From Pseudovirgaria hyperparasitica (taxonomy: Eukaryota): 64,000 bases of DNA. The first letter of the stretch is position 1; each line of letters begins with the position of its first letter. This document shows positions 377 to 53,731 of the stretch, piece by piece. The stretch lies in the NCBI GenBank assembly GCA_010093815.1, contig ML996590.1; one strand, written 5' to 3'. The notes beneath the pieces are model-generated. The model saw nothing but the letters and a program-made list of their open reading frames with translations, was not told the origin of the DNA and made no database searches. The translations under genes and the position numbers were made by a program.

Positions 377-3048
377 TAACTACTTTATATAGTATCTATT
401 TAGAATGATCCGGTAATAATAAGATATAAAATAGCTTAAGAAGCGTAATATAGAATATATTATATATCTTTAACGTAGAAGGGAGTTATAACTCGTACGC
501 CTAGTTATTAATTACACGAGTAATCTTATATAGATCTATTATTATATAGTTAAGCTTCTTCTTTGGCCTAATACTACGAATATTCTTACTATTTAGTAAA
601 ACTTTATCTCTAATATTAAAGATTATAGGTTTTCTACCCTTATTATAGTGCGATTTACTATAATTCGTAGTATCTTATAGTAACTTTATAACGCTTCTTT
701 AGGTTTAGAATAGTTCTATAGTAATTTCTATTACTTTAACGTTAGGTCGTTCTACTTTAAACTAAGTCCCTAAGAACTATATATTATAGTTCTAACCGAA
801 GTTTACTTCGAACGGACTTACGTAGGTTAATGTATATCGGCTATTATTATACGCGAATTCCGCGATATAGACTAACCTTATCTAGTTATTCTACTTATAG
901 TTATAATATACACGTAAATATACCTCGACTATCTAATTCTACCGCTCTATCTATCTATCTATTTATAGGTAGAACGTAGTACTAAGTTTCCGCTTAATTC
1001 CTAGCGTATAGTAGAAATCCTTCTAAAATTTAGACGTTATCTACGGACCTCTATCTAAAACTATACTATTTAGTATACTATAGAGCCGGACTACGTCACG
1101 GAGTAGTATATCTATAAGATCCGGTGCTTAGATTATCTTTCTTATAGGGATATAGTATAATATCTTCGTAAATCTATCTAGAACTATAAGTAAACTATTA
1201 TAAATATACCTAGAATACTTACTTAGGGGTAGATCTATAATGAAATCCATTAATAATTTCTTCTATGCCTCCTTTAGCATAGGTAATAGCCTTAATTTAC
1301 TATATAGTAAGTGTCTATATACTTTCGTATACTGGTAAACGTTATACGTTTTTATGTAGTCTTTTATATATTTATAAAGACCTAGCTAGTTATACGTCCT
1401 TCGGATTAAATCGACCGTTCTTATAATACTAAAGTACCCTACTAACGTGTAATCGTGCTATTCCCTTAATACATTAATTTATAAGCCGCCTTCCGGCACG
1501 TAGAGTCGGCCTTAGAAGTAGATCGCGTCTAATTATCGTTTCTACCTTAATAACCACGGTAGATCTATAGCGCTTCCTTTTATACTTATAACTTTCTTTA
1601 CTAATATATTAGAATTCTAGGTAGATTTAATTAAGTCTTCGAGGGTTTTCTTAGTTTCTTAGACATTTATTTAGATTACTTAATACCCGCTCTAATTCCC
1701 GCGGAGAATCGCTGAAAGTATCCTAGCTTCTAGTATTCTATTAGATAACTAGTCTTATAGTATCTAAAGTATAGTATAGTCTAACTTACACCGACTATCT
1801 ACGTTATTCTATAACGATTTCTTATAATCTTTATACCGCGATAGAGGATTAGCTTTATTCTCTCTTCTAGCTTTATATAAGATTTTAAAGTTAAATATTA
1901 ATATCTACTTAGCCTAACGTACTTATCGGCGATTAAGGACCTTAGTTAATATAAAGTAATATAGATTTACGTAATCCGATAATAATTTAATCTAATATAT
2001 AGAGCCTTCTAAATAATATCGCTATTACTTAAAACTCTTAATAATTACGAGTAGTTTCTAGTCGTGCGTGTTATAACGCGTCTCTATATCCGCCATTTTA
2101 TAGGAAAAGAAAGCGACCGGGTGCTATTACACCTTATCTTTCGTATCTTTATACGGTTAACTAATAATTCTAGTAATTATAAATTCTAACGCGTTAGTTT
2201 CGACCCGAATATACTTCTTAGAATTAAAATACCTAAGAATCGGCGTAGTTATAAAGTAATTCTTTAATAATCGGAACGTATCTTACGCTTCCGGCGTTAA
2301 CTATATCTTAACCGACTTAGCTTTATACTATGCTCGCCTACCTATAGAGATTTTACCGCCATTCTCTATAAGTTTATTAAGCGACGCCGTAATTCATAAG
2401 AAGCCTATAATAAATTTATAATAATAGTTTATAAAACCTATAAATATTCTAATTTAACGTATAGTAGTAGGTTCTAGCCATTCTATAATAGTCTTTACAC
2501 GCTCCGGCTCTATTTTTAGGCCGCTATATATTATAATAAAGCTAAGAAACCCAACTTCTTATTAGTAAAACTCGTATTTAGATAATTTTACGTAGATTTT
2601 ATACTACCTTAGACGATTTAGTACTAATTTCACGTATTCTTTATAATCCTATATACTATCGGAGTAAATTAGTATATTATTAAGATAAACTACGTAAATC
2701 ACGTTAAGTAATCCTATAAGTATAGTATTAATATATCCTTAAAACGCTCCTAGCGCATTTATTAGCCCGAATAGTATAATAGTATACTTAAAATAACTAT
2801 ATCTAGTCCGAAATGCGGTTTTCTACTTATCTCTGCGACGAATTCAAAGCCGGTAATATATATCTTATAAATCTAGCTTCGTAAAGTACTTTACCTTTAT
2901 TAATTAGTCTAAAGATTTACTAACTAGCGGTAATAGATAACGATTCTTCTTAGTTACCGTATTTAGTATCTAATAGTCGATGTATAGATGTAAACTTCCG
3001 TCTTTCTTCTTTATAAAGAGAATAGATATACTAGCCGATAATATACTA
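377..3048 (-). mobile_element. Ty3/Gypsy family A, copy 1: RIP-degraded RT-RNaseH-integrase fragment
   Basis: Colinear with 13680-16290. Minus strand gives RT motifs (LCIDY, KNRYPLP, TAFRTRY, YLDDILIYS) and RNaseH/integrase motifs, interrupted by TAA/TAG. Confidence 0.9.
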
Positions 3049-3286
3049 TAATAATAATAATAATATTAGTAAACTAGGTAGAGTACCACTCTATAGGCGC
3101 ATGCCTCCTCTAGTCTAAGCTACTATATAAGAAGAAACCTATAAATAGGAAAAACTCCCTTATATCTATAACTACGCTCTGTCTATCCTCTTATTCTTTA
3201 TATATATATAGCCCTAGGGGCTACCTATAGGCCTATAGCCTATATTATAATAGTTTACCCTTAGGCAGCACGTGTAGGTGCGGAGA

Positions 3287-3317
3287 TTATTAGTTAAGGG
3301 CTACCCTTAACTAATAA
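3287..3317. repeat. 31-bp palindrome TTATTAGTTAAGGG-NNN-CCCTTAACTAATAA (LINE copy 1, after ORF2)
   Basis: Perfect 14-bp arms read directly; recurs 7 times in the window. Confidence 0.95.
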
Positions 3318-6300
3318 TCGCGGTTCTCCCGGGGTTCTTCCGACGTATACCGGGGTTCTTCTAGTATATATTAGGCTTCTTCCGGCATATATACGCGGGT
3401 CTACTAGAACTAGGGGAGAGGAAGGTATATAAGTATCTATCGGGCGACGTCCTTAGAGTACTTATTAAGCCATCGCGTAATATTAGAGGTCCTTATTATA
3501 CGGACGAGGGCTTATCTTAGGGTATAGAGGCTAGAGCACGTCGCGAGGTAGTAGCGTATTATACCTCTCCGGCCATAGTCCTCGTACTAGAGAGATATAT
3601 CTAGAACGCCTCTCTAGTAGAGGTAATATAGAAGATCTATAGCGTCTATTCGGGCTTAGAGGAGTATAGATACTTAGGCCTTCGTTAGCCCTTTATATAT
3701 CTATTTACTTAGTTCCTTCTAAGACCCTTAGATCTATTCTAGATACCTATCCTATTAGGAGGCCTACTAGGCTTTAAGTACCTCCCTCTATTTATTCTAG
3801 ATCCACGACCGTATAACGTGGCTAAGCTTCTTAGGGCTCTATTAGCTTAGGATGGTATCTAGGTTATTTTGAACCTCCTACGCGGTCTAGCTTAAGTCCG
3901 CCTCTATATAGTATTTATATTATACTCGAGTTTATTCTATAGTAGGGAGGGCCTAGTAATACACGGGGATACGTGTACGTAGTATAGCGAAGGTATATAC
4001 CCTATCTCCTCTACGTTCTTATACTTATTATTTAGTAAAGTATATAAGTCTCTATATCTAGTAGAAGTTCTATATACTTATTACGTTTGTCTCGCGTCGG
4101 AGGAGTATTATATTAGTAGCTTTATATACGCCGGAGATAAGATGGAGTATATGGTTTTATATAGACTTAAGCTTTACCCGCCGAGCTTATATAAGGGCCG
4201 TATACTAGTACTCGTATCTATATATAAAGGCTAGGCGTGCTAGGGAGACGTATAGCTATCTCGCCTTATCCTAGGCTATTCCCTACGTAGATGCCGTAAT
4301 CTAGTATATAGTGGTTTCTACCTAGAGGGCTCTAGAGATAGCGTGTGCCACCTATAGTCTCTATTTTAGCTTATTATCGATTATAACGCCGAGTGCGCGT
4401 ATACTCTATACTAGTAGTTCTATAAAGGCGTCGATTTAGAGGTGACGTGCCCCCTTCCTAGTAGCCTATCCTCTATAGCGGTTAATAAAGTATATAAGCT
4501 AGTATTTTTTAGGTGCGATTTTTACTCTATGGCGCTTTACCCACTAGATACATTTCTCGTGGTCTCGTTTAAGTCGTGTATATATTCTACTAGTACTACT
4601 ATCGACCGCGAGGAGGTATATATTATCCGTGTATCCGACTACCTCTATATATTCTATTCCCTAAAGGAGATCTACTATAAAGAAGAGGAAGAGGATCGGG
4701 GAGATAGTGCTCCCTTATAGGATGCCGTATACTATCTCCTTATATTCGCTTTGGTATCTAGGGATATATATTTAAGTAGTCCTTTACGCGAGGAAGGACT
4801 ATATAAATCATATAATCTACTTAGGTATTCGCCTTATCCGGAGGTTATAGATAAGTCTTATATAGTTTACCTTATTAAACGCCCCTACTATATCTAGGGA
4901 GAGTAGCGTAACGACTCGTCCTTATTTCTATATAGTCTAGATAACCTCGAGGATGTATTAAATAGCTATAATTAGGGAGCTTCCTACCTTCGCCTTCTGG
5001 TTTACTAGGAGAAGGCCGTATACCTATACTACTATACTTATCTTCTTAGTAATCGTGGCTTCTAGTACCTTACTAAGGTAGGAGAGAAGGGTAATCGGCC
5101 TCCATCCCTTCGGCGTGTTTAGGCTCTTCCCTAGTTTTAGGAGTATAACTATATATATAGTTTAGAAGCTCTATAGGTGGTATCCTATACGGGCGCACGC
5201 TCGGAATCTATAGCCTATAATTAGTAAGGTCGCCTATATAGTTCTCTTAAGGTATCGATTCGGAATTCTACCTAGCCCGGGCGCTTTATCGTTCGGGAGT
5301 GTCTTAATAGCGCCGAGTATATCGTCGTCCATGATTTCTCTAGGGATACTTATAGCTTCCGGGTATTCCGTGCCATTAATATCTAATAGGTCTACGGGTT
5401 CTAGGAGAGAGAATATAATCTCTTATAGGATCTCTATTTTCTTAAGGCTCGTGGAGTACATCTTTTCTTAACATATAAGAGGGGGTATAAGTGGTATAGG
5501 TGTCGGGGAGACGGTGCTTTTAGCCTATTTTACTATATACTATAGTCTAGTAGTATTACGTGTGTATCTATCCGTAACTATATACTACTATTTACGTTAC
5601 TTATTACGGAGGACCTTATCTCGTTATCTTCTCGCCTCTCTCTATTTATCCTACGCTTTAGATATATAGTTATAGTATACGCGTGTATATAATCTCCGGA
5701 CTTCTCGCCTATGCTCTCGTACTTAAGGTATACTTTTTAGGTCTAGGGGTCTATATATTCGGTACGGCACGTGTTTATCTCTTACTCCCTAGTACGCCTA
5801 TAGGAGTATATTTACGGCCTGGTTAATAGCCGGGCCATTAGATACGTCGACTATAGACGGGTCTAGAATCGTCGATTCTAGGTTCTTTAGGTACTTTTCC
5901 TAGTTAGTATCCTTCTATAGCTATCGCCCTCGTTAGTCTTAAGGGGTAGATACGTCTATTACGGTCTCTATATATTTATAGTCGGAGTCTATCTATATAA
6001 GGCTTAGGTAGTAGTATTAAGTTCTATTATAAATATATCTAGTGGCTAGGGTAAGGTTAAGTATAGATCCGCCCTTATCTTATTTATGTTTTCGCTAGGT
6101 AATCTATTCTACTAGTATAAGAAGATATAGGAAGCCGTAGTATTAGATGCGTAGTTCTCTAGCTCGAAGCTCTTCGCGGGTAACGGTTAGTCTACCCTAC
6201 TAGCTATAATAGAGGTTAAAGTCTCCTAGAAGGATATGTTATCCTAGCTCGGTAGTGCCCTTAAGTATATTATCCGCCTAAAGTAATCGGTTCTAATTAT

Positions 6301-8075
6301 ATATATTATATATATAGAGGGGTCCGATATTCGTCTAGAGGTGTAGTGTTATCCGGAGGTTATCCCGTTTAGTATACGACCATAATAAGAGTAGAATAGA
6401 CTTATAGATATAGAAGAGGACTCTCCTCTCCGGTCCTAGGGGGTGTATTATATAATATTCTAGGTGTGTTATTGGTTTATTCGTCTAGTAGTATTTATAT
6501 AGCTCCTATATAGCGAGTATTATAGCTCCGGTCTCCTCGAGGAGTATTACCTAGCTCTTATATTTATACTATACGTTTACTTATATAATTAGGAGTATAT
6601 CTTAGTCTCTTATTAGGTGCTAGAGAATATATAGGCCTATATATTTATTCCTCTAAGACGCGACTATCCTCGTATGGCGACGGCCTTAGTAATTCCTTAG
6701 GGCCGTCCTATTATTAGCTTTCTCGGGATAGTTTACTATTTCTAACTACTTCCTTATAAGGAGGTAGTCTATAGTAGTAGTATTATAGTAAAGAGAGAAA
6801 CGGTAGTAGGTCGTATCGTTTATAGCTACCTTACTCCCTTTATCCGGATTAAGTAGATATATTTAGTAATCTATTTACGTTTCACGCACGTAGCCGACTA
6901 TAACGGGTACTTACTATCGTAGTTAGAGTACTTCGCCGTGTCTCTATCCCTCTAGCCCTCTCCTTATATCCCGTAGGGGCACTTCTAGATACTATATTCT
7001 TATTAATACTATCTATACCTAGTCTTTTAGGAGTACCGCTATACTATATACCTATATCCCTAATAGTTAAAGTACTATATTATCGCCTATGCTCTATCCT
7101 ATAGTTCCGCTATAAGAAGCTCCCCTTCCGCTAGGAATCCCTCTTATATAATTTAATACGCGAGGGCGGGGTCCTTAAGCTCTACTATTATAGTAGAGTA
7201 TACCTTCGATCTAGTTTTAATCCCTTATATATTCTTCTACCATGCTCTTACGATCTTAATCCCTAGGTATTTTCGCTCGTTTAACTATTCTATCTATATA
7301 ATATCCTCTTCTCTAATAACCTATCCGCTTACGGGTATAGAGTATACCTATATCGGGTATATAGCCGCCCTAATAGAGGCGCCTAGAAAGATACTACTAA
7401 TCGCGTTCGGATTACGCGAGATAGTCTACTACGTGATATTCGTTATTATAGTAAGTACTACTCCTCCTAGCGTGAGTTTAGCGACGATAATATTTAACTA
7501 TATTCCCTTTTATTTATTAATCTTACTTACTATATCCTTTAGGGATGCTTACTAGATCTATACTAGGGTGTCCTTATCCTAGATTATAACGCGTATACTA
7601 TACGCCGAGTCGCCGGTCTAGGGGGCCCGTAGTATAGCCTCCGGTATTACTACTATTTATACCTATATACTAGGGTACTTACCTTAAGTAAGTTCCTCCT
7701 AGATTCTACGTAGGCTAGCCTCTATTTAGTTAAGTCTACCCTCCGGTTCTCCTAGTTATATCTTCTTCTTCTCCTCTATAATTCCCTTTAGATTCCGGAT
7801 AAGGTCCTAGAATATATATAGAAGGGTCTTCTAGCCCTCTCCGGCTTCCTTCTCTATACGTACTACCTAGTAGTTAATATAATCTAGGAGGGTTTCCCCT
7901 CTCGGGGTCCCCTTTATTCTATCTATCTATGGCGGCGTGCGTCTTTAGATATATTCTACGTTTTAGATAGGTATATAGTTACTCTCGGTAATATTACTAT
8001 ATGGCCTTTTCTATTATACCGGTAGGGGTATATCCGGTATATGCTAGGGTATGTCGGTGCCTAAGGCCGCTATAT

Positions 8076-8106
8076 TTATTAGTTAAGGGCTACCCTTAAC
8101 TAATAA
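8076..8106. repeat. 31-bp palindrome (LINE copy 1, immediately before the ORF1 start)
   Basis: Same sequence as 3287-3317. Confidence 0.95.
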
Positions 8107-8354
8107 AAGGGGGTCGGCGTGTTAGTATTCTAGTAGCGTAGTCCGTGCCTCTATCTCCGTGAGGATTTTAAGAGGGTATATATATATCTTTACACGGCGA
8201 TAACGTCTTGGTTTCGACGCTGCACGTACGTGTATATAGTAGTAGTTAGTGTACTCGGTATACTCTATCGATTAAGGTGTGTATCTCGCTATATTACCCC
8301 GAATGGACTAAGTTAGCCTCTTAGGGATGTAAAAGAAGTTTTTATTTCTACTTC

Positions 8355-10382
8355 GTACTAGTATCTATAGATAAATTAAGATATATTCTAAAATAAAAGG
8401 AATTCTATATAAAGATTCTATTTATAGTCTCTAATAAATACCTTTAGAGAAGTAAAATCTCTATAGATACTAAATAGAATTTTATAGTTATAATACTAAA
8501 GGGTATAAGAATTATAGTAGAAGAAGTATTAGAAAGTATTATAATTATATAGCTTCTAAAGCTAGAAAATAGATTTTTTATAAGAGAAATTACCTAGATA
8601 GTCTACGCCTAGATACCCGCACGATATTTTATAATAGATACTACTAAAGAAATTTAGAACTACTATAGCTATAATTAGAATATACTAATAACTTAGCTCT
8701 AAGAGTTAAATAAAGAAAATATTTAATAATATAGTATATAGCGTAGAGTAGATAGATTAATCTAGATAACTATTACTATATAGCTACTAACGAACGTTCT
8801 ATAGTTATAGATAATTAGTTAGCTAGATCTAGTTATATAGTAGCTATAGTAGAATTTAGAAGCAAGTCTAAACGCTTATAAGTATTAATAATATATCTTA
8901 TATAAATATATAAGAGTCTAGTATATTATATAACGTCTAAAAAGTCTTAACAAAAACTAGACTACTATAATTTAGTCCTTAGGATACTAGCTCTAGTTAA
9001 TCTATTAACTAAGTACTCTAGAGAATAAAATTTAAATTATTAAGAACGTCTATAAAAGGCGGTTATAGATACTACTTAATAAAAATACTCTATATAACTT
9101 AGTTTAAAAATAGAGTCTAATTAAAAATATAATAATTACTAAATATAAAGTAGTATATAAAAAGCTACTTAAAGAACTCTATATACTTTATACTAAAGAC
9201 TTAGTCTATATATGGCTTATTTCTATAGCTTTACTTAAGGACCTTATATAGAAACTTATACTAGTCTATAAAAAAATACTATAGTTTACTAATCTATTAA
9301 TCTATAGAGAAAATCACGGTTTTAATCTAGAGATAATAATAGTAATTATTTAGAACGGCTCTAGAGATAATAGAATGGCTTTAGATATAGAGATTAATAT
9401 ACTTCTACTACGGTATCTAATAAATAGTAGTATACTATACTTATCTAAGATATATACTCTAGAAGTCGCTATTAAACTACTACCACAAATTAATAACGTT
9501 AAAAATATTAGAGTAGTTAAGAGTCTTATAGATATTACTAAAGTATAGCTAATTATCTTAGTAAGAGAGATTACTAAAGAACTAAAGACTAGGGTATCTA
9601 TCTTATATAACTAAGAAGGCTTAATAAAAGCTATTAAAGTCCCGTTATCTATTATAAAATTAGTACTAGCTACTACTACGAAAAAAGTAGCGCTAGTTAC
9701 CCTAGTAAAAAAGGTAAAGCTAGCTACTATTATAAGAAAAGTAGTAGTAAAGCTAATTACTACCGCGTCTAATATAGCTTCTATATTATCTAAACTTTTA
9801 TTAATCTCTATAATCTTAACTACCTTAATCTCTACTATAATTAGTTAATATAAAGCGGAGATAAAGATACTTATCTTAGCTTATAAAAAAGAGATAGAAG
9901 TATAGATTAAAGAAATTATAATAGAAGCTCTAAAAAGGTTCTTAGTAGAGGTATAAAAGATCGCTATATAAAAGATAGCTATAACTATAGTAGTAGCTAT
10001 AATAGTAGTAGTAGCTACGTCTATAGTAACTACTATATCTATAATAACTACTACGCCCGCGATAAATACTTCGTCTAAGAGAGAATTAACTAGATAAACT
10101 CTAAGAATTACTAACTAGATATAAAGATTTATAGAGATAATTATAAATCTATAATATTCTAATAGTATAATAAAAACTATAGAGTATACTATAGAAGTAG
10201 ATATATAGAATATTAATAAAGTAATTAGAAGATACTAGTAATATATCTAAACTAGCTTTAAAAATTTACTCGCTAAGAAAGAGAAAGAGCTAGATAAAAC
10301 TTCTATACTTTTTAATAAGATAGTAGCCGCTAGTACTTATACTTAGAGTTACTATTCTAAACTAGATAATATTTAGACAGAG
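8355..10382 (+). pseudogene. Long RIP-degraded ORF of unknown identity, continuing at 18671-18965 and 32287-~32800
   Basis: One + frame traced from ~8830 with only TAA/TAG interruptions and Ala/Thr/Pro/Lys-rich stretches. The frame rejoins across the TSDs of elements A2 and B1. Confidence 0.5.
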
Positions 10383-10610
10383 TGTAAGAATAGGGTTATT
10401 AGATAGTAGTGTAGTTAGATAGAATAATAGGGTGTATTCTATTATAGAACGAATTACTACCGAACCCTTTCGGTAGGAATCCGAGAGTATATATATAAAG
10501 GGACGCCGATCTATCTAGTACGTGACTATTTACCGCCCTTTACGTTACCTTCTAACTCTATTAGCTAAGGTATATATAGATTAGGTCCTACCTAAGGCTA
10601 AGTCCTAATA
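10383..10610 (-). repeat. 3' LTR of family A copy 2
   Basis: TGTAAG...CTAATA (RIP of TG...CA); direct repeat of 18438-18665. Confidence 0.93.
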
Positions 10611-11042
10611 ATTATCCCTTCCCTCTAGGAAGCTACCCTTAGCGACCTAGATCGTTATCTATCTCTATATCCCTATCCTAAGTCTCGTAAGACCTTAGTC
10701 GTTCTCCATGCTTCGTCTTAGATACTTACTAATATTTACCGATCTAAGATTTACATAAGCGTTTTCCTAATAAACTAAATTTTATCTATCTTAACTTCTT
10801 ATATAGGTGAGATTACCTAATTAGGCCTAGCGTATCACGTGATGTGATTAGGTAAGCCTAGGTACTACCTATATTAAAATCTTTTCTTAGAAATATTCCT
10901 TTCTTTAAAAAACTTCTTAACTCTTTATAGAGTTTTTTAGATTATTAGATATATCACCCGATCCTTATAGATATAGATTTATATAGATTTACTATAATTT
11001 AGTATGATTTATATAATTTACTAATTTTTCTACCGTCCTTAG

Positions 11043-12076
11043 CTAGTAATAACATAATTCGTAATAATCTATATAAATTAATAATAATCTTAATATAGTT
11101 TCCTAAAATCTTAATACTCTAAAGTAATTAGCGCGGAAATAGGCGCCTTTAAATAATCCCTATCTTATATATGTTACCGACATATCGAAAGCTATTAATC
11201 TACCCCGACCTAGGCCGGGCTCTAATAATCTAGCTATATATTATTATGGTTATTGCTTTCCGTCGTATATTACTCACGGTAGTACTAAATCTATAATATA
11301 CGGTACTTATATAACTAAGAAGCGTTATTACTTATAGATATTTAAGTAAGTTCGAAGAACTTTACGTAGATTTACTTATATTAGTATAGATTACTACTAG
11401 GCCTCTAGTAACCTCTACTAATAAGGAGCGTGGTACTACCGATCGTAACGCCTTAGAGAAGGCTTTCTACGAGCTATATACCTAAGGTAAGGGTTACGCC
11501 TAGGAGTACGATTCTAATAAGATCCGTAAGGATTTATCGGAATCTACTATAGCTATTATTACCGCGATTACTAGGTAACATTATTTTTCTTAAATTATTA
11601 TAGATTCTTACTAATATATATTAATCTCTATAATAGTACTAAAATCTCTACTACTTCGGACTTCTTTCTATATACCGGCGATATTAGAATTCCTAGAAAA
11701 GGTTCTAGTGAAAAGGCTAAGGTTCCTTCCTCGCGCGTACTAAAGAGCTATAAATTTAGGGAAGATAGCTCTAATCTAGAAGTTTCTATACTAAAGGTAT
11801 ATGGTTCTATACCGATCGTTAAATCTTTTCGCTGATTTATATAATTACTAGCGTGCCCGCGCCGTTCCGTCCCTCTCTATCCCGGGTTCTACCGCTCTAT
11901 AGGTTTCTATAGAGGAGTTTATAGCTATAAGGCACGCTATATAGAATTTATAGCGTCGGAACGAAAGGCTAGAGACTTATATTATGAAGCTCTATACTAT
12001 ACTAAACAAGAACTAGCGGAAGGAATTAGATGTAACCATCGCGGTAATTAGTACTTCTACTCCTACTCTAACTTAA
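11043..12076 (+). pseudogene. Antisense spliced accessory gene in Gypsy A (Zn-cluster-like Cys motif plus coiled coil), RIP-degraded; 5' end uncertain
   Basis: Introns 11346-11400 (GTAAGT..TAG), 11575-11636 (GTAACA..CTAAT..TAG) and 11797-11851 (GTATAT..GCTGAT..TAG) give phase-compatible exons. Tyr/Cys codons are spaced Cx2C...C...Cx2Cx6C. Confidence 0.65.
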
Positions 12077-12306
12077 TCGGTTTAGATCTACACCGATTAG
12101 TACTAATATATCTCTTTTATCTAGCGTTTTTAGTTTTTTAGTTTTAATTTTAAAGTGATCTTACTTCTTCTAGATAGATTAGTACGAGTTTATATAGATC
12201 TATATAGATCTTTATATTTTCTTTTAGCTTTCTTAATTTTATCTTTCTTTAATAATAACTTCTTTAATCTCTTTAGTAATCTATACCGATCTATACTAAT
12301 TAGCAC

Positions 12307-12389
12307 GGCCAGGTGGCGTAGTGGTAGTATACTACGTTACTAGAAGCGTTTGTTATCCAACGTCGTGGGTTCGAATTCTATAACGGCTA
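12307..12389 (+). promoter_or_regulatory. tRNA-derived head of SINE (Pol III internal promoter, A and B boxes)
   Basis: GGCC...GGC(C/T)A ends; T-arm GTGGG-TTCGAAT-CC(C/T)AT. Isotype not assignable. Confidence 0.75.
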
Positions 12390-13250
12390 CCTTTTTACAT
12401 ACTAGTTTTTACACGCTCTATTAAAAAGTATATGGGGCTAAGCGAGTACGTGACGTAAAGGTTACCGTTATATAACTACTTAGTCCTAAGCGACTATTAG
12501 GTAATATGAAAATAACTATACCGTTATTACATAATAAGAATTACCTAATATAGCTATCTACTAAGCTACCTTAAGTAGTAGAGCGACGCCTAGAGCGGCT
12601 AGACCCATAACTAGCTTAGCTCGAATCATAGAATTTTCACTATATACCGGGGCCTTGTCTACCCTAATCCGGCTTAGCTCGCGCTTACTCCGGCTCGGTA
12701 ACCACGAAATAGACGGTAATACCTAATTAAGTATCCCGCCTACCTATAGACGATTATATAGCCCCGAAGAATAATTTCCGAATTCGGCCTAGCTAGGGTT
12801 AGTACTAAGGCATGGACCTATTAGATATACACCCCCTCCGGTATTAGTCATCTTAATTAATAACTACTACCTAGCGTAAAGCTATATTCCTATAGATAGG
12901 AAAAAACACGGTAACATAGGAATAAAAGACTAGGCCTAGCCTAGCGACCTACCCAATCACAAGAAAGGTAATACCTACTATAGTTGGTTAGGGCGTTATT
13001 AAGAGCCGGTACTAATATAGTAATAAAAGCCTAATATAAGGATAAGAAGTAAGTTTATTACCCAATGGGATTCGAGGACTTAGACTAGGCTAGGTTAGGT
13101 TAGTAATAGGGTCTAGTTAGGGAGCTAATCATAGGAGGTTTTCTTATATACATAGCAGCCAATACTAGAGGAGGCCTGAGCCTATGGAGCATATATATAG
13201 CTATATATATAGTTCTTCCTAGTTAAACACTAATATTATTATTATTATTA
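12307..13250 (+). mobile_element. tRNA-headed SINE, full-length copy (~945 bp) with LINE-like 3' end
   Basis: A box TGGCGTAGTGG, B box GGTTCGAAT(T/C)C, (ATT)n tail, TSD TACTAATTAGCAC (12294-12306/13251-13263). The last ~120 bp resemble the LINE 3' UTR. Confidence 0.88.
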
Positions 13251-13389
13251 TACTAATTAGCACCGATTTTCGATGTCCATTTCTCTTAGTAAATCATTTT
13301 TCTAAGTCTCTTTTTTAGTTAAATTTTTTAAAGTTCTAAGTTTGAACTTTCTAAGGAAGTTCCTTAATTCCTTAGAATGTTTTAAAGAT

Positions 13390-16300
13390 CTATGTCTCTT
13401 TCACCTTCTTCCTTTTAGGCGGCCGTCCTTAGCGCCGAACTATACTAAAAAACGTTAAATCGCCGTACTTTGGTATAATTCTCTGCGATTCCGTGGCTTC
13501 CTTTACTAATCGCTACTTATATACTAATATCGCTGCTTTACTAATGTTTATTATAGGTTCCTAAGTATCTTTATTAGGATTATATTCTTTCTAACGAATT
13601 TTATATAGCCACGTGCCATCTTCGGCGTGTTACTAGCTAAGTATCTACTTAACTTTATAGATATCTATACCTTCTTACGTAACTACTTTATATAGTATCT
13701 ATTCGGAACGATCCGGTAATAATAAGGCATGAAATGGCTCGAGAAGCGTAATATAGAATATATTATACATCTTTAACGTAGGAGGGAGTTATAACTCGTA
13801 CGCCTGGTTATTAATTACACGAGTAATCTTATATAGACCTATTATCATATAGTTAAGCTTCTTCTTTAGCCTAATACTACGAATATTCTTACTATTTAGT
13901 AAAACTTTATCCCTAACATTAAAGATTATAGGTTTTCTACCCTTATTATAGTGCGATTTACTATAATTCGTAGTATCTTATAGTAACTTTATAACGCTTC
14001 TTTACGTTTAGAATAGTTCTATAGTAATTTCTATTACTTTAACGTTAGGTCGTTCTACTTTAAACTAAGTCCCTAAGAACTACGTATTATGGTTCCGACC
14101 GAAGTTTACTTTAAACGGACTTACGTGGGTTAACGTATGTCGGCTATTATTATACGCGAATTCCGCGATATAGACTAACCTTACCTAGTTATCCTACTTA
14201 TAGTTATAATATACGCGTAAATACGCCTCGACTATCTAATTCTACCGCTCCGTCTATCTATCTATTTATAGGTAGAACGTAGTACTAAGTTTCCGCTTAA
14301 TTCCTAGTGTATAGTAGAAATCCTTCTAAAATTTAGACGTTATCTACGGACCTCTATCCGAAACTATACTATTTAGTATACTATAGAGCCGGACTAGGTT
14401 ACGGAGTAGTATATCTATAAGATCCGGTGCTTAGATCGTCTTTCTTATAGGGATATAGTATAATATCTTCGTAAATCTATCTAGAACTACGAGTAAACTA
14501 TTATAAATATACCTAGAATACTTACTTAGGGGTAGATCTATGATAAAATCCATTAATAATTCCTTCTATACCTCCTTTAGCATAGGTAATAGCCTTAATT
14601 CGCTATATAGTAAGTGTCTATATACTTTTGTATGCTGGTAAACGTTATATATTTTTACGTAGTCTTTTATATATTTATAAAAACCCGGCTAGTCGTACGT
14701 CCTTCGGATTAAATCGACCGTCCTTATAACGCCGAAGTGCCCTACTAACGCGTAATCGTGCTATTCCCTTAAAACATCGATTCGTAAGCCGCCTTCCGGT
14801 ATATAGAGTCGGCCTTAGAAGTAGATCGCGTCTAATCGTCGTTCCTACCTTAATAACTATAGCGGATCTATAGCGCTTCCTTTCATGCTTATAACTTTCT
14901 TTACTAATATATCGGAATTCTAGGTAGATTTAATTAAGTCTTCGAGGGTTTTCTTAGTTTCTTAGACGTTTATTTAGATTACTTAATACCCGCTCTAATT
15001 CCTGCGGAGAATCGCCGAAAGTATCCTAGCTTCTAGTATTCTATTAGATAACTAGTCTTATAGTATCTAAAGTATAGTATAGTCTAAATTACACCAACTA
15101 TCTACATCATTCTATAACGATTTCTTATAATCTTTACGCCGCGATAGAGGATTAGCTTTATTCTCTCTTCTAGCTTTATATAAGATTTTAAAGTTAAATA
15201 TTAATATCCACTTAGCCTAACGTACTTATCAGCGATTAAGGACCTTAGTCGATATAAAGTAATATAGATTTACGTGATCTAATAATAATTCGATCTAATA
15301 TATAGAGCCTTCTAAATAATATCGCTATTACTTAAAACTCTTAACGATTACGAGTAGTTCCTAGTTATACGTATTATAACGCGTCTCTATATCCGCCATT
15401 TTATAGGAAAAGAAAGCGACCGGGTGCTATTACACCTTGTCTTTCGTATCTTTATACGGTTAACTTATAATTCTAGTAATTATAAATTCTAACGCGTTAG
15501 TTTTAACCTAAATATACTTCTTAGAATCGAAATGCCTAAGAATCGGCGTAGTTATAAAGTAATTCTTTAACGATCGGAACGTATCTCGTGCTTCCAGCGT
15601 TAACTATATCTTAACCGACTTAGCTTTACGCTATACTCGCCCATCTATAGGGATTTTACCGCCATTCTCTATGAGTTTATTAAGCGGCGCCGCAATTCGT
15701 AAGAAGTAGTAGTAGGTTCTAGCTATTCCATAATAGTCTTTACACGCTCCGGCTCCATTTTTAGGCCGCCATGTGTTATAATAAAGCCGAGAAACCTAAC
15801 TTCTTGTTAGTGAAACTCGCATTTAGATAATTTTACGTAGAGTTTATACTACCTTAGACGATTTAGCACTGATTTCACGTGTTCTTTATAATTCTATATG
15901 CTATCGGAGTAAATTAGTATATTATCGAGATAAACTACGTAAATCACGTTAAGTAATCCTACGAGTATAGTGTTAATATATCCTTAAAACGCTCCTAGCA
16001 CATTTATTAGCCCGAATAGTATAATAGTATACTTAAAATAACTATATCTAGTCCGAAATGCGGTTTTCCACTTATCTCCACGACGAATTCGAAGCTAGTA
16101 ATATATATCTCGTAAATCTAGCTTCGTAAAGTACTTTACCTTCGTTAATTAGTCTAAAGATTTACTAACTAGCGGTAATAGGTGACTATTCTTCTTAGTT
16201 ACTGTATTTAGTACCTAATAGTCAACGTATAGATATAAACTTCCGTCTTTCTTCTTTATAAAGAGAATAGGTGCGCCGGCCGATAACGTACTACGACGTA

Positions 16301-18400
16301 TCTAGCCTCTTTTAAGGTATTCTTTAATGTATTTACGAAGAACTTTGAGTTCTAGTCTCGAAAGTAGGTAAAGTAGACTATAAGGGACGTCTACTCCCTC
16401 TTTAAGTACGATCTTTAGCTTATGCGGCCCGTGATTAGGGAGAAGTAATGCATCTCCTACCGAAAATATATCCGTATACTACGAATATACGTCGGGTAGC
16501 GTATCTTCGCCCCGATTATTACTATCGTCCTCGTCTTTATTAACGATTAATAAGAATATAAGATAGATTAGCGACGATCGGGTCCGTATGGTAAGGTTCC
16601 ATGCCTTCTTACTAATAGTTACGACTTACTAGTATAATTTACCATAGTACTATCGGAACGTTAATATCTCCTTCTAAAAATTAAGGATGGGGTTTAGGCG
16701 TCTAAGCTAAGGCATCCCTAGAATTATATTCTATTAGCTAATATTAGCCACGATAAATTCATTAGACATCTACTATTTTATTATCTTCGAGTCATGAACT
16801 TCGTAATTCGTTATAGCTTTACCCAAAGTTCTAACTTTATATCTATTAACTACGATAGTTCGGCTAACTTTACCAAGATCGTACGATAATCTATACTCCT
16901 TTATAAGAATCGACGAAATATAGTTATCTTCTATACTAGTGTCTATAAGGGCCTATATAGTTTTATTACCATTTACTATAGGTAACGATACTTTTAGTAA
17001 TATTAGGTCTTTACTCGCCGGAAGGCGCTACGGCTCCTTCTAAGTATATATAATTTAGCTAAGGACGCGGTTAGATCTCGTGTACTAGCCTATTCTTTTT
17101 TTAGATTCTTATAGTTAGGTAAAATATATCCTATTTCTCTATACTTATAGTAACGAAGTACGCTATAATCCTACTATTTTATGATAGGCGTTATATTTAA
17201 GCCTATGCCTTATCCTTTTCCGCGTTAAGAAGCACCGCCTTAATTGTTTCGGTATCCTCTTAACGCGTTTCTACCCCGATTTACGCTCTTCTAGCGCTAA
17301 TCGCGGTAAGGTTACTCTTAATCGAACGTATTCGATTGACCTCGTTTCTAACCCATATAGGGTTCGTCAGTTTTACCTAGAGAGCCGCGTTCCTTAAGGA
17401 TGCGGTAGTATTTATTAGCTTTCTCCTCTAATTCGTGTAGATAGTTAAAACTTAATAATACTATTCCTAGTCTTTCGCGGATTAACGGAAGTAGTACTTC
17501 GCGAAACTAGAATATATGAATATTTTCCTATAGCGTAGGGATATTATCCTATAGGTTTTAGAGGTATTATAGTAGTTAAGTAGGTGTCTAGTTCGGTCGT
17601 TATGCCACGCTTCTTAACTTAGATAGTACCTTTCTTTTACGTTCTCTATCCGTTCCGAGGGTGTTTAGTATAAATATAGCTAAATATTCCTAGGTTATCG
17701 TAGATAGTAGCTATACTTCCTTCTATCTATCCTATTAATCGCGGGATTATAAGTCTAGGTATCGTTCTCCGAACGAAATGCGTTATACTTTAGTAGAAAA
17801 GAGTAGAGGGTTATCGAGGAAGTACTTTTCGCAGTCTCTCTTCTAGTCTTTCTACTCCTTTTAGTTCTTCCCTATAAATATAGTCGGGTCTTTAGGTTTC
17901 GGCATACCTAGAGAAGGAGTAGGGTAAATCGGTAACGAAGCGGCTGGGTATACGGTAGATTATCGTAACTCTAATAGTAGGTAAACTAATTCCGCCTAAA
18001 TTAGTATAGGAAGTCGTCCACCTACTATCGTTCGGCGTAGTTCTTTAAGAGACTCCTTAAGTTCTCGTCTCTTTGCGAGGAGTTTCGCGCGTTCTATCTA
18101 TTCTTTAAGGGTTTGAATCTCTTAAGCCTAATTCATGATGTATTCCTAAAGTTCGGCGATGGTTTATTATAATATCTTACGTGGCTCCGCCACGACTCGT
18201 TATCCGGCTTTATATTATTAGAAGTTACTCGGCGTATCTACCATTTCTTCGTCTAAAAGCTCCGTGATTTAGTCTAATATTTCCACTTCTCGGTTAGAAA
18301 CGGCCGGGATTAATGCCGATTATAGAGGATCCCTATTATTTAATATAGTGTTACTTATCCCTATAGTGGATCGTGTCGACCTTCTCGGTTCTAGTTAGAC
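13390..18400 (-). pseudogene. gag-pol of family A copy 2 (RIP-inactivated; ends approximate)
   Basis: Gag knuckle ~17100-17160, protease LIDTG-like ~16940, RT ~15750-16400, RNaseH, integrase, chromodomain ~13520-13700. Confidence 0.85.
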
Positions 18401-18437
18401 TATCTTAACTATAGTACTATATAGGGAGTAATTTGAA

Positions 18438-18665
18438 TATAAGAATAGGGTTATTAGATAGTAGTATAGTTAGATAGAATAATAGGGTGTATTCTATTAT
18501 AGAACGAATTACTACCGAACCCTTTTGGTAGGAATCCGAGAGTATATACATAAAGGGACGCCGATCTATCTAGCACGTGACTGTTTACCGCCCTTCACGT
18601 TACCTTCTAACCCTGTTAGCTAAGGTACGTGTAGGTCGGGTCCTGCCTAAGGCTAAGTTCTAATA
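18438..18665 (-). repeat. 5' LTR of family A copy 2
   Basis: Direct repeat of 10383-10610; adjacent to the gag start. Confidence 0.93.
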
Positions 18666-19692
18666 TAGAGATACTAATTTCTAGAATCTCTATATCTAAG
18701 TACTAGTTTAATATATCTAAGTACTAGTTTAAACAACTACTAGAATAAAATAAATAGAAGAATAAATTCTATAATATAGAAGACTTCTAAATGAAAGAAG
18801 CTACTACTATAGAAACTAAACTAATTATTAAAACTAATAAAGTTACTACTACTATCGATACTACTACCAAAACTATTTTAGCTACTTCTATAATTATTAT
18901 TATAGCTCTAGAACCGGTAGTTACTATAATTAGAAGCTAATTAACTAATACTTACTTAACTTAGCTATAAGAATTATAGACGTAGGATAGTAGTCTAACA
19001 GGTTATAGGAGGATTCGGGAATATATTTAAAAGGGTAGTCTACTCTTCTAACGAGGTTAATTCCTAAAGAGTAGAAATTAAGTATATACGGCCTACTTAT
19101 ATAGTAGTCTCGCTTATTCTAGCTGGCTTAACCTAGGTCCACCTATTACGGACCGTACTAGACCATAGTAGTCTAGTTAAGTCTATCCTAGTATTAGCCC
19201 TAATAATATCCTTCTTCTTTTTATACTTCGCCCCGAAGTACTTAGCTATATATAAATCTATAATTCTATAAGCTTTATATTTATACGCGCATCTAATTAA
19301 ATCTATATAATATTATTAATAGTCTTTATATTAGTAAACTTAAGCTCTAGTTTACTTTTATTTATATACGCGCTTATCCCTTACTTTATAGCTACTACCT
19401 TAGAGATAGCTCCGTGGGTTATATAACCGCTATATTAACTAAGCTTATATTTAGTTCTCTTATTCTAAATTTTCTTCTCTAGTATATCTACCTTACTCTT
19501 AAGGTAAGTCGTTAATTTATATACTATCTTCTTTAGTTTAGATCCATTCGGGTCTAGAGTAGTCTATTTTTATTAGAGCTGGTCCTATATAATCTATTCG
19601 TGTTATTATAGTTACTAATTTAGCTTCTTTAATTACCTTTAAGACTAAACGAGTATTCTACTCTTAGATCTCTAGCTAATATATATATATAG

Positions 19693-20997
19693 ATATCTAA
19701 TACTAGTTCTATTCCTAAGCCTACCTCCTCCTCTTATAAGACTTACTCTAAAGAGATTATCTCTACCCCGGCTATACCGGCTAAAAAATCTACTTATTAT
19801 AGTAGTATAAAGGCGCGCTCTAAGTTAGAGAAGAAGGTAGCTAAGGCTACTACTACTATTACTACTAACGTAGCCACTAGTCGCTCTAATCTAGATAATT
19901 CTAGTACTAGTATTGCGGAAGAGATAGCTATAAAGCCTATCTATACCTACTCACGCTATCTATCTACTCTACCTTCTTTAGAGGATAAAGAAGATCTTAT
20001 TATAGATAATAATCGAGAGTTTACGTCTTCGCCGCCTTACTCTAAACGCCGTTCCTCTTTTCGGTCTAATATAGACTAACTTAGTCGCTCTAGGTCCTTT
20101 TAGGACCTTAATATTCGCTCTAAACCTAGCCCTAGTAATAATAAGGCCTAGGTCGCTAAAGATACTAAACGTAGTTACGGTTTACGCTATAGGAAAATAG
20201 CGAACTACGGTTCGATATACTTTAAGTATATTTAGGCTTATACTACTAGCTCTAAATATCTCTTCCGCTCTAACTCTAGTATTAGCTACTACTCTACTAA
20301 CCGCGACGGGCCTATATACCTAATCTTTAAGCTCCCTACCCGCTACTACCGCTATACTATCCTTAGTAAAGTTTATCTTTAGGTAAGTCTATTAGACTAT
20401 TTTAGTCTAGGGTAATCTAAAGTTATCTATACTAATATATTTTTAGGTTTCTATTTATATATAAGATATATATAACGATCTTCGTGTCCGTAAGACTCTC
20501 GGCGGTTCTAGTAGTTATCTAGCTTCTATATATAGGGAGTTTAGAGAGCGCTATAAGTTCTTTCTAGAGGTTATTAAAGTATAAGTTTAGAAACCGTTAA
20601 TTATTATTAACCTTAGCTTATAATTTTTAGTCGCCGCGAGATTCCTAGCACTTAGGCTACCTATTCTAGGGAGTCGGTTTTAGCTACTAAGGCCGTAGAA
20701 GAGATTCGTACTATTTCTTTCTACCCGCCTTATACTACTAACGGGTCTTATAAGAGATCTACTAGTTCTCCTTCTAAGTTACCTTATAAGAGGGTATATA
20801 TTCTATTCTAGATTATTCTAGACCGCGTTAGCTAACTTTAGGTCTAGTCGCTCCGCTCTAGCGCTTAGTTATTGTCTTACTAGGCTCTAACTAAGCGCGT
20901 GGTTACTCTAGAGAATAAGGTCTCTAACCTCCGTCGCTCTATTACTTAGTTAGTTCGTTTACCATACTCTAAGAGTAATAATAAGATAGAGGAGTAG
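19693..20997 (+). pseudogene. Antisense four-exon accessory gene in Gypsy B copy 1 (basic N-terminus, Zn-cluster-like Cys motif, coiled coil)
   Basis: Introns 20383-20446, 20581-20630 (donor RIP-mutated GTAAGT->ATAAGT) and 20794-20841 (GCTAAC branch) give a continuous ~380-codon frame. De-RIP reading CFKC...C...RCYRCTVLGKVCLQ. Confidence 0.72.
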
Positions 20998-23703: not shown

Positions 23704-23734
23704 TTATTAGTTAAGGGCTACCCTTAACTAATAA
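23704..23734. repeat. 31-bp palindrome upstream of LINE ORF1
   Basis: Read directly; followed by CCATAGCG (RIP of CCATGGCG start context). Confidence 0.95.
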
Positions 23735-26700: not shown

Positions 26701-28480
26701 TAATCGCCCTTCTCTTCTACCTAGGTAAGATACTAGAGACTATGGTAGCGAAGAAGATAAGTACCGCGGTATAGAAATATAATCTCCTCCCTCTAAACTA
26801 GAAGGTAAAGGTAGATAGCTCTCTAATAATAGCTATCTAATATATTATTAAAGTCGTCTAGGCCGTATAGAAATAGGGACGGGTAGTATTACTCCTCTCC
26901 CTTAATATGGCCGGAGTATTTAATAAGGTAAACCATATAAGACTTATTTATAACCTCTAGATAAGACGAATACTAGAATAGATTACACGCTTTATATAGT
27001 TATTCCTTATAGGAAGAATAACTTAGATATATATCCCTAGGTACTAGAGCGAATATAAAGAGATGGTATACGGCATCCTATAAGGGAGTACCATCTCTCT
27101 AATTCTATTCCTCTTCTTTATAGTAGACCTTCTTTAAGGAATAAAGTATATAGAGGTAGTCGAATACGCTAATAATATATACCTCCTAGCTATTAATAAT
27201 AATACTAACTGAACGTATAGACGACTAGAATAGAACTATAAGAGGTACCTCTAGTAGATAAAACGCCACGGAGTAAAGTTCGCCCCGGAGAAATACTAGC
27301 TTATATACTTTATTAACTATTAAGGGAAATAGATAACTAGGGAAGGCGAATAACGCCCCCGAATCGACGTATTTAACGAATTACTAGTATAAAGTATACG
27401 CGCGCTCGGAGTTATACTAGATAGTAAGCTTAAATAGGGACCATAAGTGGCATACGCCGTATCTAGAGCCCTCTAGATAGAAGCCGCTATACGACGGATT
27501 ATAGCCTCTATATAGGGAACCGCCCGGGATAAGGCACGCCAGCTATATATATCTATAGTATGACCCGCCTTTACGTATAGATACGAGTGCTAGTATACGG
27601 CCCTTATATAGACTAGGTGAATAAAGCTCGAATCCATATAGAACCGTATACTCCGTCTTATATTAGGTATATATAAAGCTACTAACATGGTACTACTACG
27701 ACGCGAGATAGACGTTATAAGTATATATAACTTCTACTAGATATAGAGGGTAGTATACTTTACTAAATAATAAGTATAGGAACGCATAGGAAACGTAGAA
27801 TATACTTTCGCCGCGCTACGTGTACGAATTAGTATATATTACCGTATACTTCTATATATAGGCTAGAATCGAATACGGTATAGATACTTAATAGAAGCTA
27901 ACTCTAGCTAAGTAGTATAAGAAGTCTGAGATAACCTAGACGCTCTCCTAGACTAGTAGAGCCTTTAAGAACTCGTAAAAAATATACGGTCGTAGACTTA
28001 AGATAAGTAGAAAGAGGTACTCTGTACCTACTAGACCTTCTAGTAGGATAGGTACCTAGAGTAGATTCGAGGGCCATAGAAGGAACTAAGTAAATAGATA
28101 TATAAAGGGCTAATAAAAGCCTAAGTATCTATACTTATCTAAGCCCGAACGGGCGCTATAGAACTCCTATACTATATCTATAAGAGAGGCGTTCCCGATA
28201 TCTCTCTATAGTATAAGGCGTGCGGCCGGAGAGGTATAATACGCTACTATCTAGCTATATACCCTAACCTCTATATATAACGGTAATAGCTTATCCACGT
28301 TACGAAGACTTTAGATATTATATAATAGCTTAATAAGTACCCTAAGGACGTCTCCCGATAGATGCTTATATATCTACTACTTCTCTAGTACTAGTAGACC
28401 TAGAAATATATACTAGAAGAGACCTAGTATACGCTAGTAGTAACCCGATATATACCGGAAGAACCCTAGGAGAACCCCGA

Positions 28481-28511
28481 TTATTAGTTAAGGGCAGCCC
28501 TTAACTAATAA
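28481..28511. repeat. 31-bp palindrome at LINE ORF2 end
   Basis: Read directly; loop CAG. Confidence 0.95.
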
Positions 28512-45710: not shown

Positions 45711-45715
45711 ATAGA

Positions 45716-53726: not shown

Positions 53727-53731
53727 ATAGA

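What the first reader, a model, noticed from the sequence alone, without database searches (positions are those of the whole stretch)
11043..12076. A second, sequence-distinct Gypsy family (A) has an antisense gene of the same architecture
Seen: family A has different LTRs and no evident DNA similarity to B in this region, yet shows the same layout. It has a Cys-motif exon ending C-G-T-C-x6-C-L-Q (B: C-Y-R-C-x6-C-L-Q) just before intron 1, three short introns with compatible phases, and a last exon with heptad character (AMRHAMQNLQRRNERLETYIMKL after de-RIP). One TGC codon survives. Inferred: the same position, orientation, exon plan and motif in two families points to a retained accessory gene of a chromovirus lineage rather than chance capture. 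This is the best candidate here for an undescribed system.
Basis: partly seen in the sequence, partly recalled or inferred. Interest (0 to 1): 0.88.

Follow-up and report, generated by a model that had tools for sequence, protein, structure and literature searches.

The report
Possible antisense gene relic in Gypsy element
A mutation-riddled fungal Gypsy retrotransposon has a 1.7-kb stretch after its pol gene that may hold the wreck of a backwards-facing extra gene, a layout already described in other fungal and plant elements, and this dead copy cannot prove it.

Summary
The gene reads on the window's + strand, antisense to a complete family A Ty3/Gypsy element (10381-18665, minus strand; 5-bp target duplication, polypurine tract).

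In favour of a gene relic:
- The 1.7-kb stretch between pol and the 3' LTR belongs to the high-copy family, once a nested 965-bp SINE-like insertion (12297-13261) is removed.
- Its + strand is more open than shuffles (P about 0.007-0.05).
- Three GT..AG segments of 55-62 nt link the open frames in phase.

Against:
- The 'Cys motif' is Tyr codons plus one TGC and a TAG.
- A RIP-tolerant alignment of the A and B intervals is at chance level, although the same method detects gag.
- The motif block ranks 5th of 249 donor-like sites.
- Intron 1 differs in phase between A and B.
- No homologue turned up in three protein searches, Pfam or 80 related metagenome loci.
- Other non-genic tiles of the window look equally 'open'.

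Antisense genes between pol and the 3' LTR are already in print (brtn of Boty; plant aORFs). Verdict: plausible but unproven relic, about 0.45, and not an undescribed kind.

The parts
10381..10609 (-). 3' LTR of the family A element (about 228 bp; pairs with 18435-18665)
   Evidence: About 93% identity to the 5' copy. Target-site duplication CAGAG / TAGAG flanks the element.
10615..10626 (-). Polypurine tract AGAGGGAAGGGA, just inside the 3' LTR
   Evidence: Read.
10611..12296 (.). Native pol-to-3'LTR interval of family A (1686 bp)
   Evidence: Summed contig depth in runs X1 and X2 matches that of the pol 3' end and is about 10x that of the nested insert. Contigs join 12296 to 13262.
11152..11345 (+). 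Candidate exon 1. A 61-codon open run ending Y-G-T-Y-x6-Y-L-TAG (11299-11337). One TGC at 11254-11256. 11 of 61 codons are Tyr.
11346..11400 (+). Candidate intron 1 (55 nt, GTAAGT..TAG, phase 2; no branch-site match)
   Evidence: phase checked by hand.
11401..11574 (+). Candidate exon 2 (frame of 10613; 2 in-frame stops, TAA and TAG)
11575..11636 (+). Candidate intron 2 (62 nt, non-consensus donor GTAACA, ACTAAT branch-like, TAG)
   Evidence: The same segment was chosen by the loose-donor search.
11637..11796 (+). Candidate exon 3 (frame of 10612, no stop). It lies inside the 86-codon ORF 11575-11835.
11797..11851 (+). Candidate intron 3 (55 nt, GTATAT, CTGAT branch-like, TAG). Most other genomic copies read CT at 11847-11848, which keeps the TAG.
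11852..12076 (+). Candidate exon 4 (frame of 10613; 4 in-frame TAG; helical-looking peptide at 11924-11992; TAA at 12074-12076)
12297..13261 (+). Nested 965-bp SINE-like insertion. Not part of the element and not part of the candidate gene.
   Evidence: Contigs skip it. A second copy lies at 1-392, inverted. Its tail resembles the LINE 3' end.
13300..16800 (-). pol of family A (RT, RNase H, integrase, SH3; chromodomain-like end near 13450-13695)
   Evidence: Pfam RVT_1 2.6e-21, RT_RNaseH_2 1.9e-15, Integrase_H2C2 5.2e-10, SH3_Tf2-1 3.8e-11. tblastx to B.
18435..18665 (-). 5' LTR of family A

Best explanation
The 1.7 kb between pol and the polypurine tract / 3' LTR of family A is a regular internal part of this chromovirus-type Ty3/Gypsy element. 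It most likely carries the RIP-wrecked relic of an accessory gene read on the opposite strand, of the known 'antisense aORF between pol and 3' LTR' type.

Inferred working of the intact ancestor:
- Transcription starts in the roughly 540 bp next to the 3' LTR and runs towards pol, tail to tail with it.
- Short spliceosomal introns are removed only from this antisense transcript. The sense genomic RNA keeps them, so they are copied at each transposition.
- The product is a small protein of about 250 residues with a Tyr/Cys/His-rich N-terminal part and a helical C-terminal part, acting on the element's own expression or life cycle.

Shown: the position, the strand, that the interval belongs to the family, and a modest excess of open frame.
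Inferred: that it is coding at all, the exon plan, the Cys motif, the promoter and any function.
This copy is dead.
For: - The element is complete, with TSD, LTR pair and PPT.
- The interval is as deep as pol in the genome's own contigs.
- + strand openness: 13 stops in 299 codons in one frame against a shuffle minimum of 21.1 +/- 2.6, P=0.0055. The span was chosen post hoc. Longest run 86 codons, P=0.03-0.055 (P=0.050).
- Spliced-ORF score 125 or 170 against shuffles of 67.5 +/- 16.4 or 79.7 +/- 24.5, P=0.007. The sense strand scores 61 or 76.
- The single GTAAGT follows a 64-codon open run. Only 7 of 251 donor-like sites in the window have 60 or more open codons upstream.
- The four-exon model is in phase, and all 7 stops are RIP-type TAA/TAG.
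- Family B shows a stronger version of the same layout.
- There is a published precedent in fungal chromodomain Gypsy elements.
Against: - No relative among 1.84 billion representatives. The one hit, P0001, is a repeat protein matching the stop-ridden middle of the query.
- None in two word-indexed searches of the two A frames.
- No Pfam hit on the + frames.
- The A and B intervals are not alike beyond chance.
- The motif block is only 5th of 249 sites, and stop-ridden junk scores as high.
- 7-17 of 148 window tiles are as 'open', among them the antisense strand of the LINE.
- The stop-count test does not even pick out true pol (P=0.80), so its meaning in RIPped DNA is uncertain.
- The intron 2 donor is non-consensus, and exon 1 has no ATG.
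- The closest intact relative, L030, has no long interval.
- Four other long-interval elements show no antisense openness.
Confidence: 0.45

Rival explanations
1. The interval is non-coding internal DNA of the element, such as a long 3' untranslated or regulatory stretch. The 'gene' is an over-reading. RIP makes Tyr, Leu, Ile and TAG/TAA very common. De-RIP lets almost any Tyr become Cys and any stop become Gln or Trp. GT..TAG pairs of 45-80 nt are easy to find wherever a frame switch is needed.
For: - Only one real Cys codon.
- A-to-B alignment is at chance level, while gag is detected by the same method.
- No homologue anywhere searched.
- Junk sites match B's motif block as well as A does.
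- Non-genic tiles are equally open.
- Whole-interval stop test P=0.17.
- Long intervals in L034, L060, L073 and L076 show no antisense signal.
Against: - Shuffle tests give P=0.007 and P=0.0055 for the post-hoc span 11152-12048.
- The openness is confined to the + strand even though this interval has little A/T skew.
- An open run ending at the only GTAAGT coincides with a top-2% motif score.
- Family B's much longer ORF and its canonical intron sit in the same place.
Confidence: 0.4
2. The interval is an old capture: a fragment of a host gene or of another mobile element, taken up in reverse orientation by the ancestor of family A and carried along passively. Family B's interval would be an independent capture.
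For: - A and B intervals share no detectable similarity.
- Exon 1 length and intron 1 phase differ between them.
- The nested SINE-like insert 220 bp away shows that foreign DNA does lodge in this interval.
Against: - No match to any protein family or protein that would name a source.
- The interval is present at full family depth.
- Two families having it in the same place and orientation argues for retention rather than accident.
Confidence: 0.12

Closest known systems
[quoted passage not shown] 2011, Virology 417:248). I saw this only as a citation and in passages of PMC8365987, PMC7264820, PMC4227169 and PMC5987419; the paper itself is not held.
   Same: It is a fungal LTR element with gag, RT, IN and a chromodomain, carrying an extra gene between pol and the 3' LTR on the opposite strand. 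BRTN-like transcripts are reported in Monilinia.
   Different: I had no brtn sequence to compare. The A translations found nothing in the protein collections. Whether brtn has introns or Cys motifs I could not see. I recall the Boty LTR as roughly 0.6 kb, against 228 bp here; that figure comes from memory and from no call.
Plant antisense aORFs between pol and the 3' LTR (Grande, RIRE2, Retand, PvRetro13), reviewed in PMC7264820 (section 5 read). PMC11963269 was seen as a search listing and abstract start only.
   Same: Same place and orientation inside a Ty3/Gypsy element. Present in most copies of a family. Function unknown.
   Different: They are plant lineages; the abstract start of PMC11963269 calls Retand a non-chromovirus lineage. 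No sequence comparison was done. The copies here are RIP-inactivated.
Family B of this window (B1 18962-32337, B2 45712-53782)
   Same: Minus-strand chromovirus-type element. A 2.3-kb pol-to-3'LTR interval with + strand open frames. A Y/C-xx-Y/C-x6-Y/C-L-TAG block next to a (G/A)TAAGT donor. Several donor-like hexamers about 170-240 nt apart.
   Different: pol is only about 45-55% identical in protein. The intervals are not alignable. B's first exon is at least 230 codons and Ser/Thr-rich, against about 60 in A. The donor follows the motif directly in B (phase 0) but 8 nt later in A (phase 2).

Membership tests
Antisense accessory ORF between pol and 3' LTR of Ty3/Gypsy elements (aORF-3R; brtn type) | Lies inside the element, between the end of pol and the 3' LTR | tested here: met
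   LTR pair, 5-bp TSD and PPT define the element. The candidate at 11152-12076 lies between PPT/LTR (10610) and the pol end (about 13300), with a nested insert removed.
Antisense accessory ORF between pol and 3' LTR of Ty3/Gypsy elements (aORF-3R; brtn type) | Reads on the strand opposite to gag-pol | tested here: met
   pol domains are on the minus strand. Open frames and donor-like signals are on the + strand only.
Antisense accessory ORF between pol and 3' LTR of Ty3/Gypsy elements (aORF-3R; brtn type) | A real coding frame, kept in most copies | tested here: inconclusive
   The interval is present at family depth. Openness gives P=0.007-0.05 against shuffles, but 7-17 of 148 tiles match it. 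The copy is RIPped, and no un-RIPped copy was at hand.
Antisense accessory ORF between pol and 3' LTR of Ty3/Gypsy elements (aORF-3R; brtn type) | Antisense transcript exists | not testable with these tools
   No RNA holder is listed for the stretch. The contigs laid cannot show strand or level.
Antisense accessory ORF between pol and 3' LTR of Ty3/Gypsy elements (aORF-3R; brtn type) | Sequence similarity to BRTN itself | not tested
   No brtn sequence was available from any tool. Indirectly, the A translations hit nothing credible in the protein collections.
Same gene as the family B antisense candidate | Protein similarity above chance | tested here: not met
   RIP-tolerant codon Smith-Waterman over all 9 frame pairs: 45 against null 39.8 +/- 3.8 (maximum 49). 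Controls: gag 57 against 38.2 +/- 3.0, IN-chromo 189 against 31.8 +/- 3.7. tblastx finds nothing.
Same gene as the family B antisense candidate | Shared motif at the end of exon 1 | tested here: inconclusive
   Present only in RIP-tolerant form. The 16-codon block ranks 5th of 249 donor-like sites once B1 and B2 are set aside.
Same gene as the family B antisense candidate | Introns at the same position and phase | tested here: not met
   The intron 1 donor is 8 nt after the motif, phase 2, in A. It follows directly, phase 0, in B1 and B2.
Chromovirus-type Ty3/Gypsy element (host element of the finding) | RT, RNase H and integrase in Gypsy order, plus a C-terminal chromodomain | tested here: met
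   RVT_1, RT_RNaseH(_2), Integrase_H2C2, rve (below Pfam's cut-off) and SH3_Tf2-1 occur in that order. The chromodomain is not called by Pfam in A, but the pol end aligns to B's and to L029's chromodomain-bearing pol (score 296 against 33.6).

The most novel reading that the evidence does not exclude
Families A and B descend from a chromovirus lineage that carries one ancient, intron-bearing antisense gene. It would encode a small protein with a zinc-binding Cys cluster and a coiled-coil tail, unrelated in sequence to brtn and to every protein family on record. This would be a second, independent family of fungal retrotransposon accessory genes, whose antisense introns are preserved because only the antisense transcript is spliced.
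Probability: 0.22. Interest if true: 0.55.

Novelty: new member of a known kind. Interest (0 to 1): 0.3.

Why it matters
If real, this would add a spliced, sequence-orphan antisense gene to the few accessory genes known from fungal LTR retrotransposons. It would also suggest that such genes are commoner in chromoviruses than the single brtn case implies. Their function is unknown in fungi and in plants alike, so a family found in two diverged elements would give a handle for comparative and expression work.

As it stands, the copy is RIP-dead and the coding claim is unproven. The practical value is a pointer: look at un-RIPped relatives. It is also a caution that de-RIP by eye can turn Tyr-rich junk into Cys motifs.

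Tried and rejected
- Whole genome: none is held.
- Earlier findings: four look-ups, all empty.
- Sequencing runs: no RNA holder is listed. Runs X3 and X4, of unknown kind, have next to no cover on the interval. I draw no conclusion from either.
- Purine/pyrimidine 3-periodicity, which RIP does not change: it has no power, because true pol is not detected either.
- Stop-density ranking of window tiles: the antisense strand of the LINE and a low-complexity stretch score best, so it does not separate genes from non-genes. A first run of the spliced-ORF search with too mild a stop penalty was uninformative.
- Protein Atlas on the A 86-codon ORF and the B1 128-codon ORF: no usable hit.
- B1 ORF in the word-indexed protein search: nothing.
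- Viral-contig scan with A integrase: no relative.
- Metagenome scan: 80 loci, none close (26-44% identity in the best segment). There is no strict CxxCx6CLQ in 1,052,498 codon positions. Antisense ORFs there are Copia gag or RT (L020, L024) or an unrelated ORF family.
- The L060/L076 tblastx matches to A's interval fell below 28 bits when re-run on the intervals alone.
- Other Gypsy fragments of the window (33276-35367, 41013-43290, 62593-63585) have no alignable intervals.
- Rfam and ARAGORN on the tRNA-like head of the nested insert: no hit.
- The idea that 12291-12682 was part of the gene region was rejected. It belongs to the nested insert.

Full report
**Setting**

- The window is AT-rich fungal repeat DNA (GC 0.20-0.40) that is riddled with stop codons. 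Only 13 stop-to-stop frames of 80 codons or more exist in 64 kb. That, together with the transition bias below, is the signature of RIP.
- A self-comparison and Pfam scans of six-frame translations with stops read as X give the layout.
- Family A is a Ty3/Gypsy element on the minus strand, 10381-18665. In order it has RVT_1 (2.6e-21), RNase H (1.9e-15), Integrase_H2C2 (5.2e-10), rve (weak) and SH3_Tf2-1 (3.8e-11), followed by a chromodomain-like end.
- Its LTRs are about 228 bp and about 93% identical. The element is flanked by CAGAG / TAGAG, and the purine run AGAGGGAAGGGA abuts the 3' LTR. It is therefore one complete insertion.
- Family B lies on the minus strand at 45712-53782 (B2) and 18962-32337 (B1). 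B1 is split by a Tad-like LINE.
- A and B pol proteins are about 45-55% identical after RIP. Their gag regions are barely detectable.

**Which strand the finding is on**

The claimed gene therefore reads on the + strand, antisense to A, with its 3' end towards pol and its 5' end towards the 3' LTR.

**The interval is composite**

- pol ends near 13300, which leaves 2.7 kb before the 3' LTR.
- Contigs of the organism's own DNA runs (X1, X2) join 12296 to 13262, skipping 965 bp. Summed depth over 12289-13224 is about ten times lower than on either side.
- That segment has a Pol III A-box/B-box-like head (my reading; ARAGORN and Rfam do not call it). Its tail resembles the LINE 3' end. A second, inverted copy sits at 1-392, abutting the pol of a partial A copy. 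It is a nested SINE-like insertion and not part of the element.
- The native interval is 10611-12296 (1686 bp). It is as deep in X1 and X2 as the pol end, so it belongs to the high-copy family. This fits 'retained in the family', but the same would hold for any internal non-coding stretch.

**What the + strand shows**

- In the frame of 10612 there is a 61-codon open run, 11152-11334. It ends Y-G-T-Y-x6-Y-L-TAG, has one TGC at 11254-11256, and 11 of its 61 codons are Tyr.
- Eight nucleotides further on lies GTAAGT (11346), the only strict donor hexamer in 11040-12100.
The phases are compatible, which I checked by hand.
- The joined length is 750 nt, or 250 codons. All 7 in-frame stops are TAA or TAG, and a TAA follows at 12074-12076.
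- Intron 3 is convincing after de-RIP (GTATAT from GTATGT, CTGAT branch, TAG). Intron 2 has the non-consensus donor GTAACA. Intron 1 has no branch match. Exon 1 has no ATG, and 11043 is not a start in that frame.
- An unbiased search for the best spliced open path does not return this model. With strict donors it takes 11575-12138 in one frame.

**Is it more than chance?**

For:
- 13 stops in 299 codons in 11152-12048, against a shuffle minimum over six frames of 21.1 +/- 2.6 (P=0.0055). The span was chosen after seeing the frames.
- An 86-codon run, P=0.03-0.055.
- Spliced-ORF score P=0.007 against 300 dinucleotide shuffles, with the sense strand at null level.
- Only 7 of 251 donor-like sites in the window follow 60 or more open codons.

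Against:
- Over the whole interval the stop test gives P=0.17.
- True pol fails the same test (P=0.80).
- 7-17 of 148 window tiles score as high, led by the antisense strand of the LINE.
- A RIP-invariant purine-periodicity test had no power.
- RIP turns TGT/TGC and CAT/CAC alike into TAT/TAC. Each 'Cys' could therefore be Cys, His or native Tyr.

**Is it the same gene as in B?**

- B is the stronger case. It has ORFs of 128 (B1) and 107 (B2) codons (P=0.0005 and 0.0045) and a nearly open Ser/Thr-rich frame of about 230 codons. That frame ends Y-Y-R-Y-x6-Y-L-TAG, directly followed in B1 by GTAAGT...ACTAAT...TTTTTAG, 64 nt as traced (20383-20446).
- The B1-to-B2 differences are 195 transitions to 9 transversions, as RIP predicts.
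- Nothing beyond the motif links A to B. blastn and tblastx find only the pol end.
- I wrote a codon-level Smith-Waterman that lets every TpA revert to CpA or TpG before scoring. It gives 45 for the intervals against 39.8 +/- 3.8 for shuffles. The same method gives 57 against 38.2 +/- 3.0 for gag and 189 against 31.8 for IN-chromo. It can therefore see gag-level divergence, and it sees nothing here.
- Taking B1's 16 codons before its donor as the reference, A's donor ranks 5th of 249 other donor-like sites. Stop-ridden junk scores the same or higher.
- Intron 1 differs in phase and exon 1 in length.
- The coincidence of an open run, the sole GTAAGT and a top-2% motif score is suggestive. It is not proof.

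**Relatives elsewhere**

- The two A frames found nothing in the word-indexed collection.
- A full HMMER pass over 1.84 billion representatives returned one hit, a bacterial-looking repeat protein matching the stop-ridden middle of the query. I discount it.
- The B1 ORF also found nothing. The Atlas gave no usable hit.
- A metagenome scan with A's integrase gave 80 Gypsy loci at 26-44% identity. None has the strict motif in 1,052,498 codon positions.
- The closest intact relative, L030, runs from the pol end to the next gag in 472 nt. It has no long interval.
- Four loci with LTR pairs (L034, L060, L073, L076) have 1.3-2.2-kb intervals but no antisense openness.
- Five loci (L006, L013, L014, L029, L039) share an orphan antisense ORF downstream of pol. 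It is unlike A and B, and I could not place LTRs around it.

**What is known**

- Passages in PMC8365987, PMC7264820 (section 5 read), PMC4227169 and PMC5987419 cite Zhao et al. 2011. They state that Boty-like elements of Botrytis and Sclerotinia, which have gag, RT, IN and CHROMO domains, carry an additional antisense gene, brtn, between pol and the 3' LTR. BRTN-like transcripts occur in Monilinia.
- The same layout is known in plant elements (Grande, RIRE2, Retand, PvRetro13), with unknown function. The original paper is not held.
- My searches for a fungal case beyond brtn found none. That covers only the open-access library searched.
- The layout is therefore a known kind. What could be new is another, spliced, sequence-orphan member.

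**Verdict**

- My best reading is that A's interval holds the RIP-wrecked relic of an antisense accessory gene of the brtn/aORF type, at about 0.45.
- A non-coding interval over-read through de-RIP freedom is nearly as likely, at 0.40. An old passive capture is at about 0.12.
- Homology of the A and B candidates is not shown.
- Interest is modest.

Noticed in passing
window 12297-13261 (+); second copy 1-392 (inverted): A 965-bp SINE-like element is nested in the family A interval. Its head has Pol III A/B-box-like, tRNA-type sequence (about 12312-12400). Its tail resembles the 3' end of the window's Tad-like LINE. Other genomic copies of A lack it. An un-RIPped version sits in 3.1-kb and 5.4-kb contigs of runs X3 and X4 at high depth. 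Neither ARAGORN nor Rfam calls the head.
   Followed up: partly
window 3048-8350 (-), 23463-28749 (+), 36100-39125 (+), 58763-59295 (-): Copies of a Tad-like non-LTR retrotransposon (RVT_1 1.6e-14) cut a partial A copy and B1. The strand antisense to its RT is the most 'ORF-like' tile of the whole window, probably because that strand is A-poor.
   Followed up: partly
window 8351-10380: A very AT-rich, low-complexity stretch (GC about 0.27) is open in frames of both strands: 6-11 stops per 300 codons. It matches nothing in the A or LINE queries. Its nature is unexplained.
   Followed up: no
L006 7901-8605, L013 7933-8646, L014 4148-4881, L029 2023-2968, L039 1785-2105 (all minus strand of the locus): Un-RIPped metagenomic chromovirus-type elements share an orphan antisense ORF 0.6-1.5 kb downstream of the pol stop, 57-87% identical over short pieces. 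It has no Pfam family, no LTR pair was found around it, and it is unlike the A and B intervals. It may be another antisense accessory gene.
   Followed up: partly
window 19693-20808 (B1) and 46443-47558 (B2), + strand: Family B's antisense candidate has a 128-codon intact ORF in B1. A canonical intron (GTAAGT...ACTAAT...TAG) lies at 20383-20446, and a second intron-like segment at 20553-20616 (ATAAGT...TTAAC...TAG). This is clearer than anything in family A.
   Followed up: partly
window 33276-35367 (+), 41013-43290 (+), 62593-63585 (-): Further, more heavily RIPped Gypsy pol fragments of other families. Their flanks do not align to the A or B intervals.
   Followed up: partly
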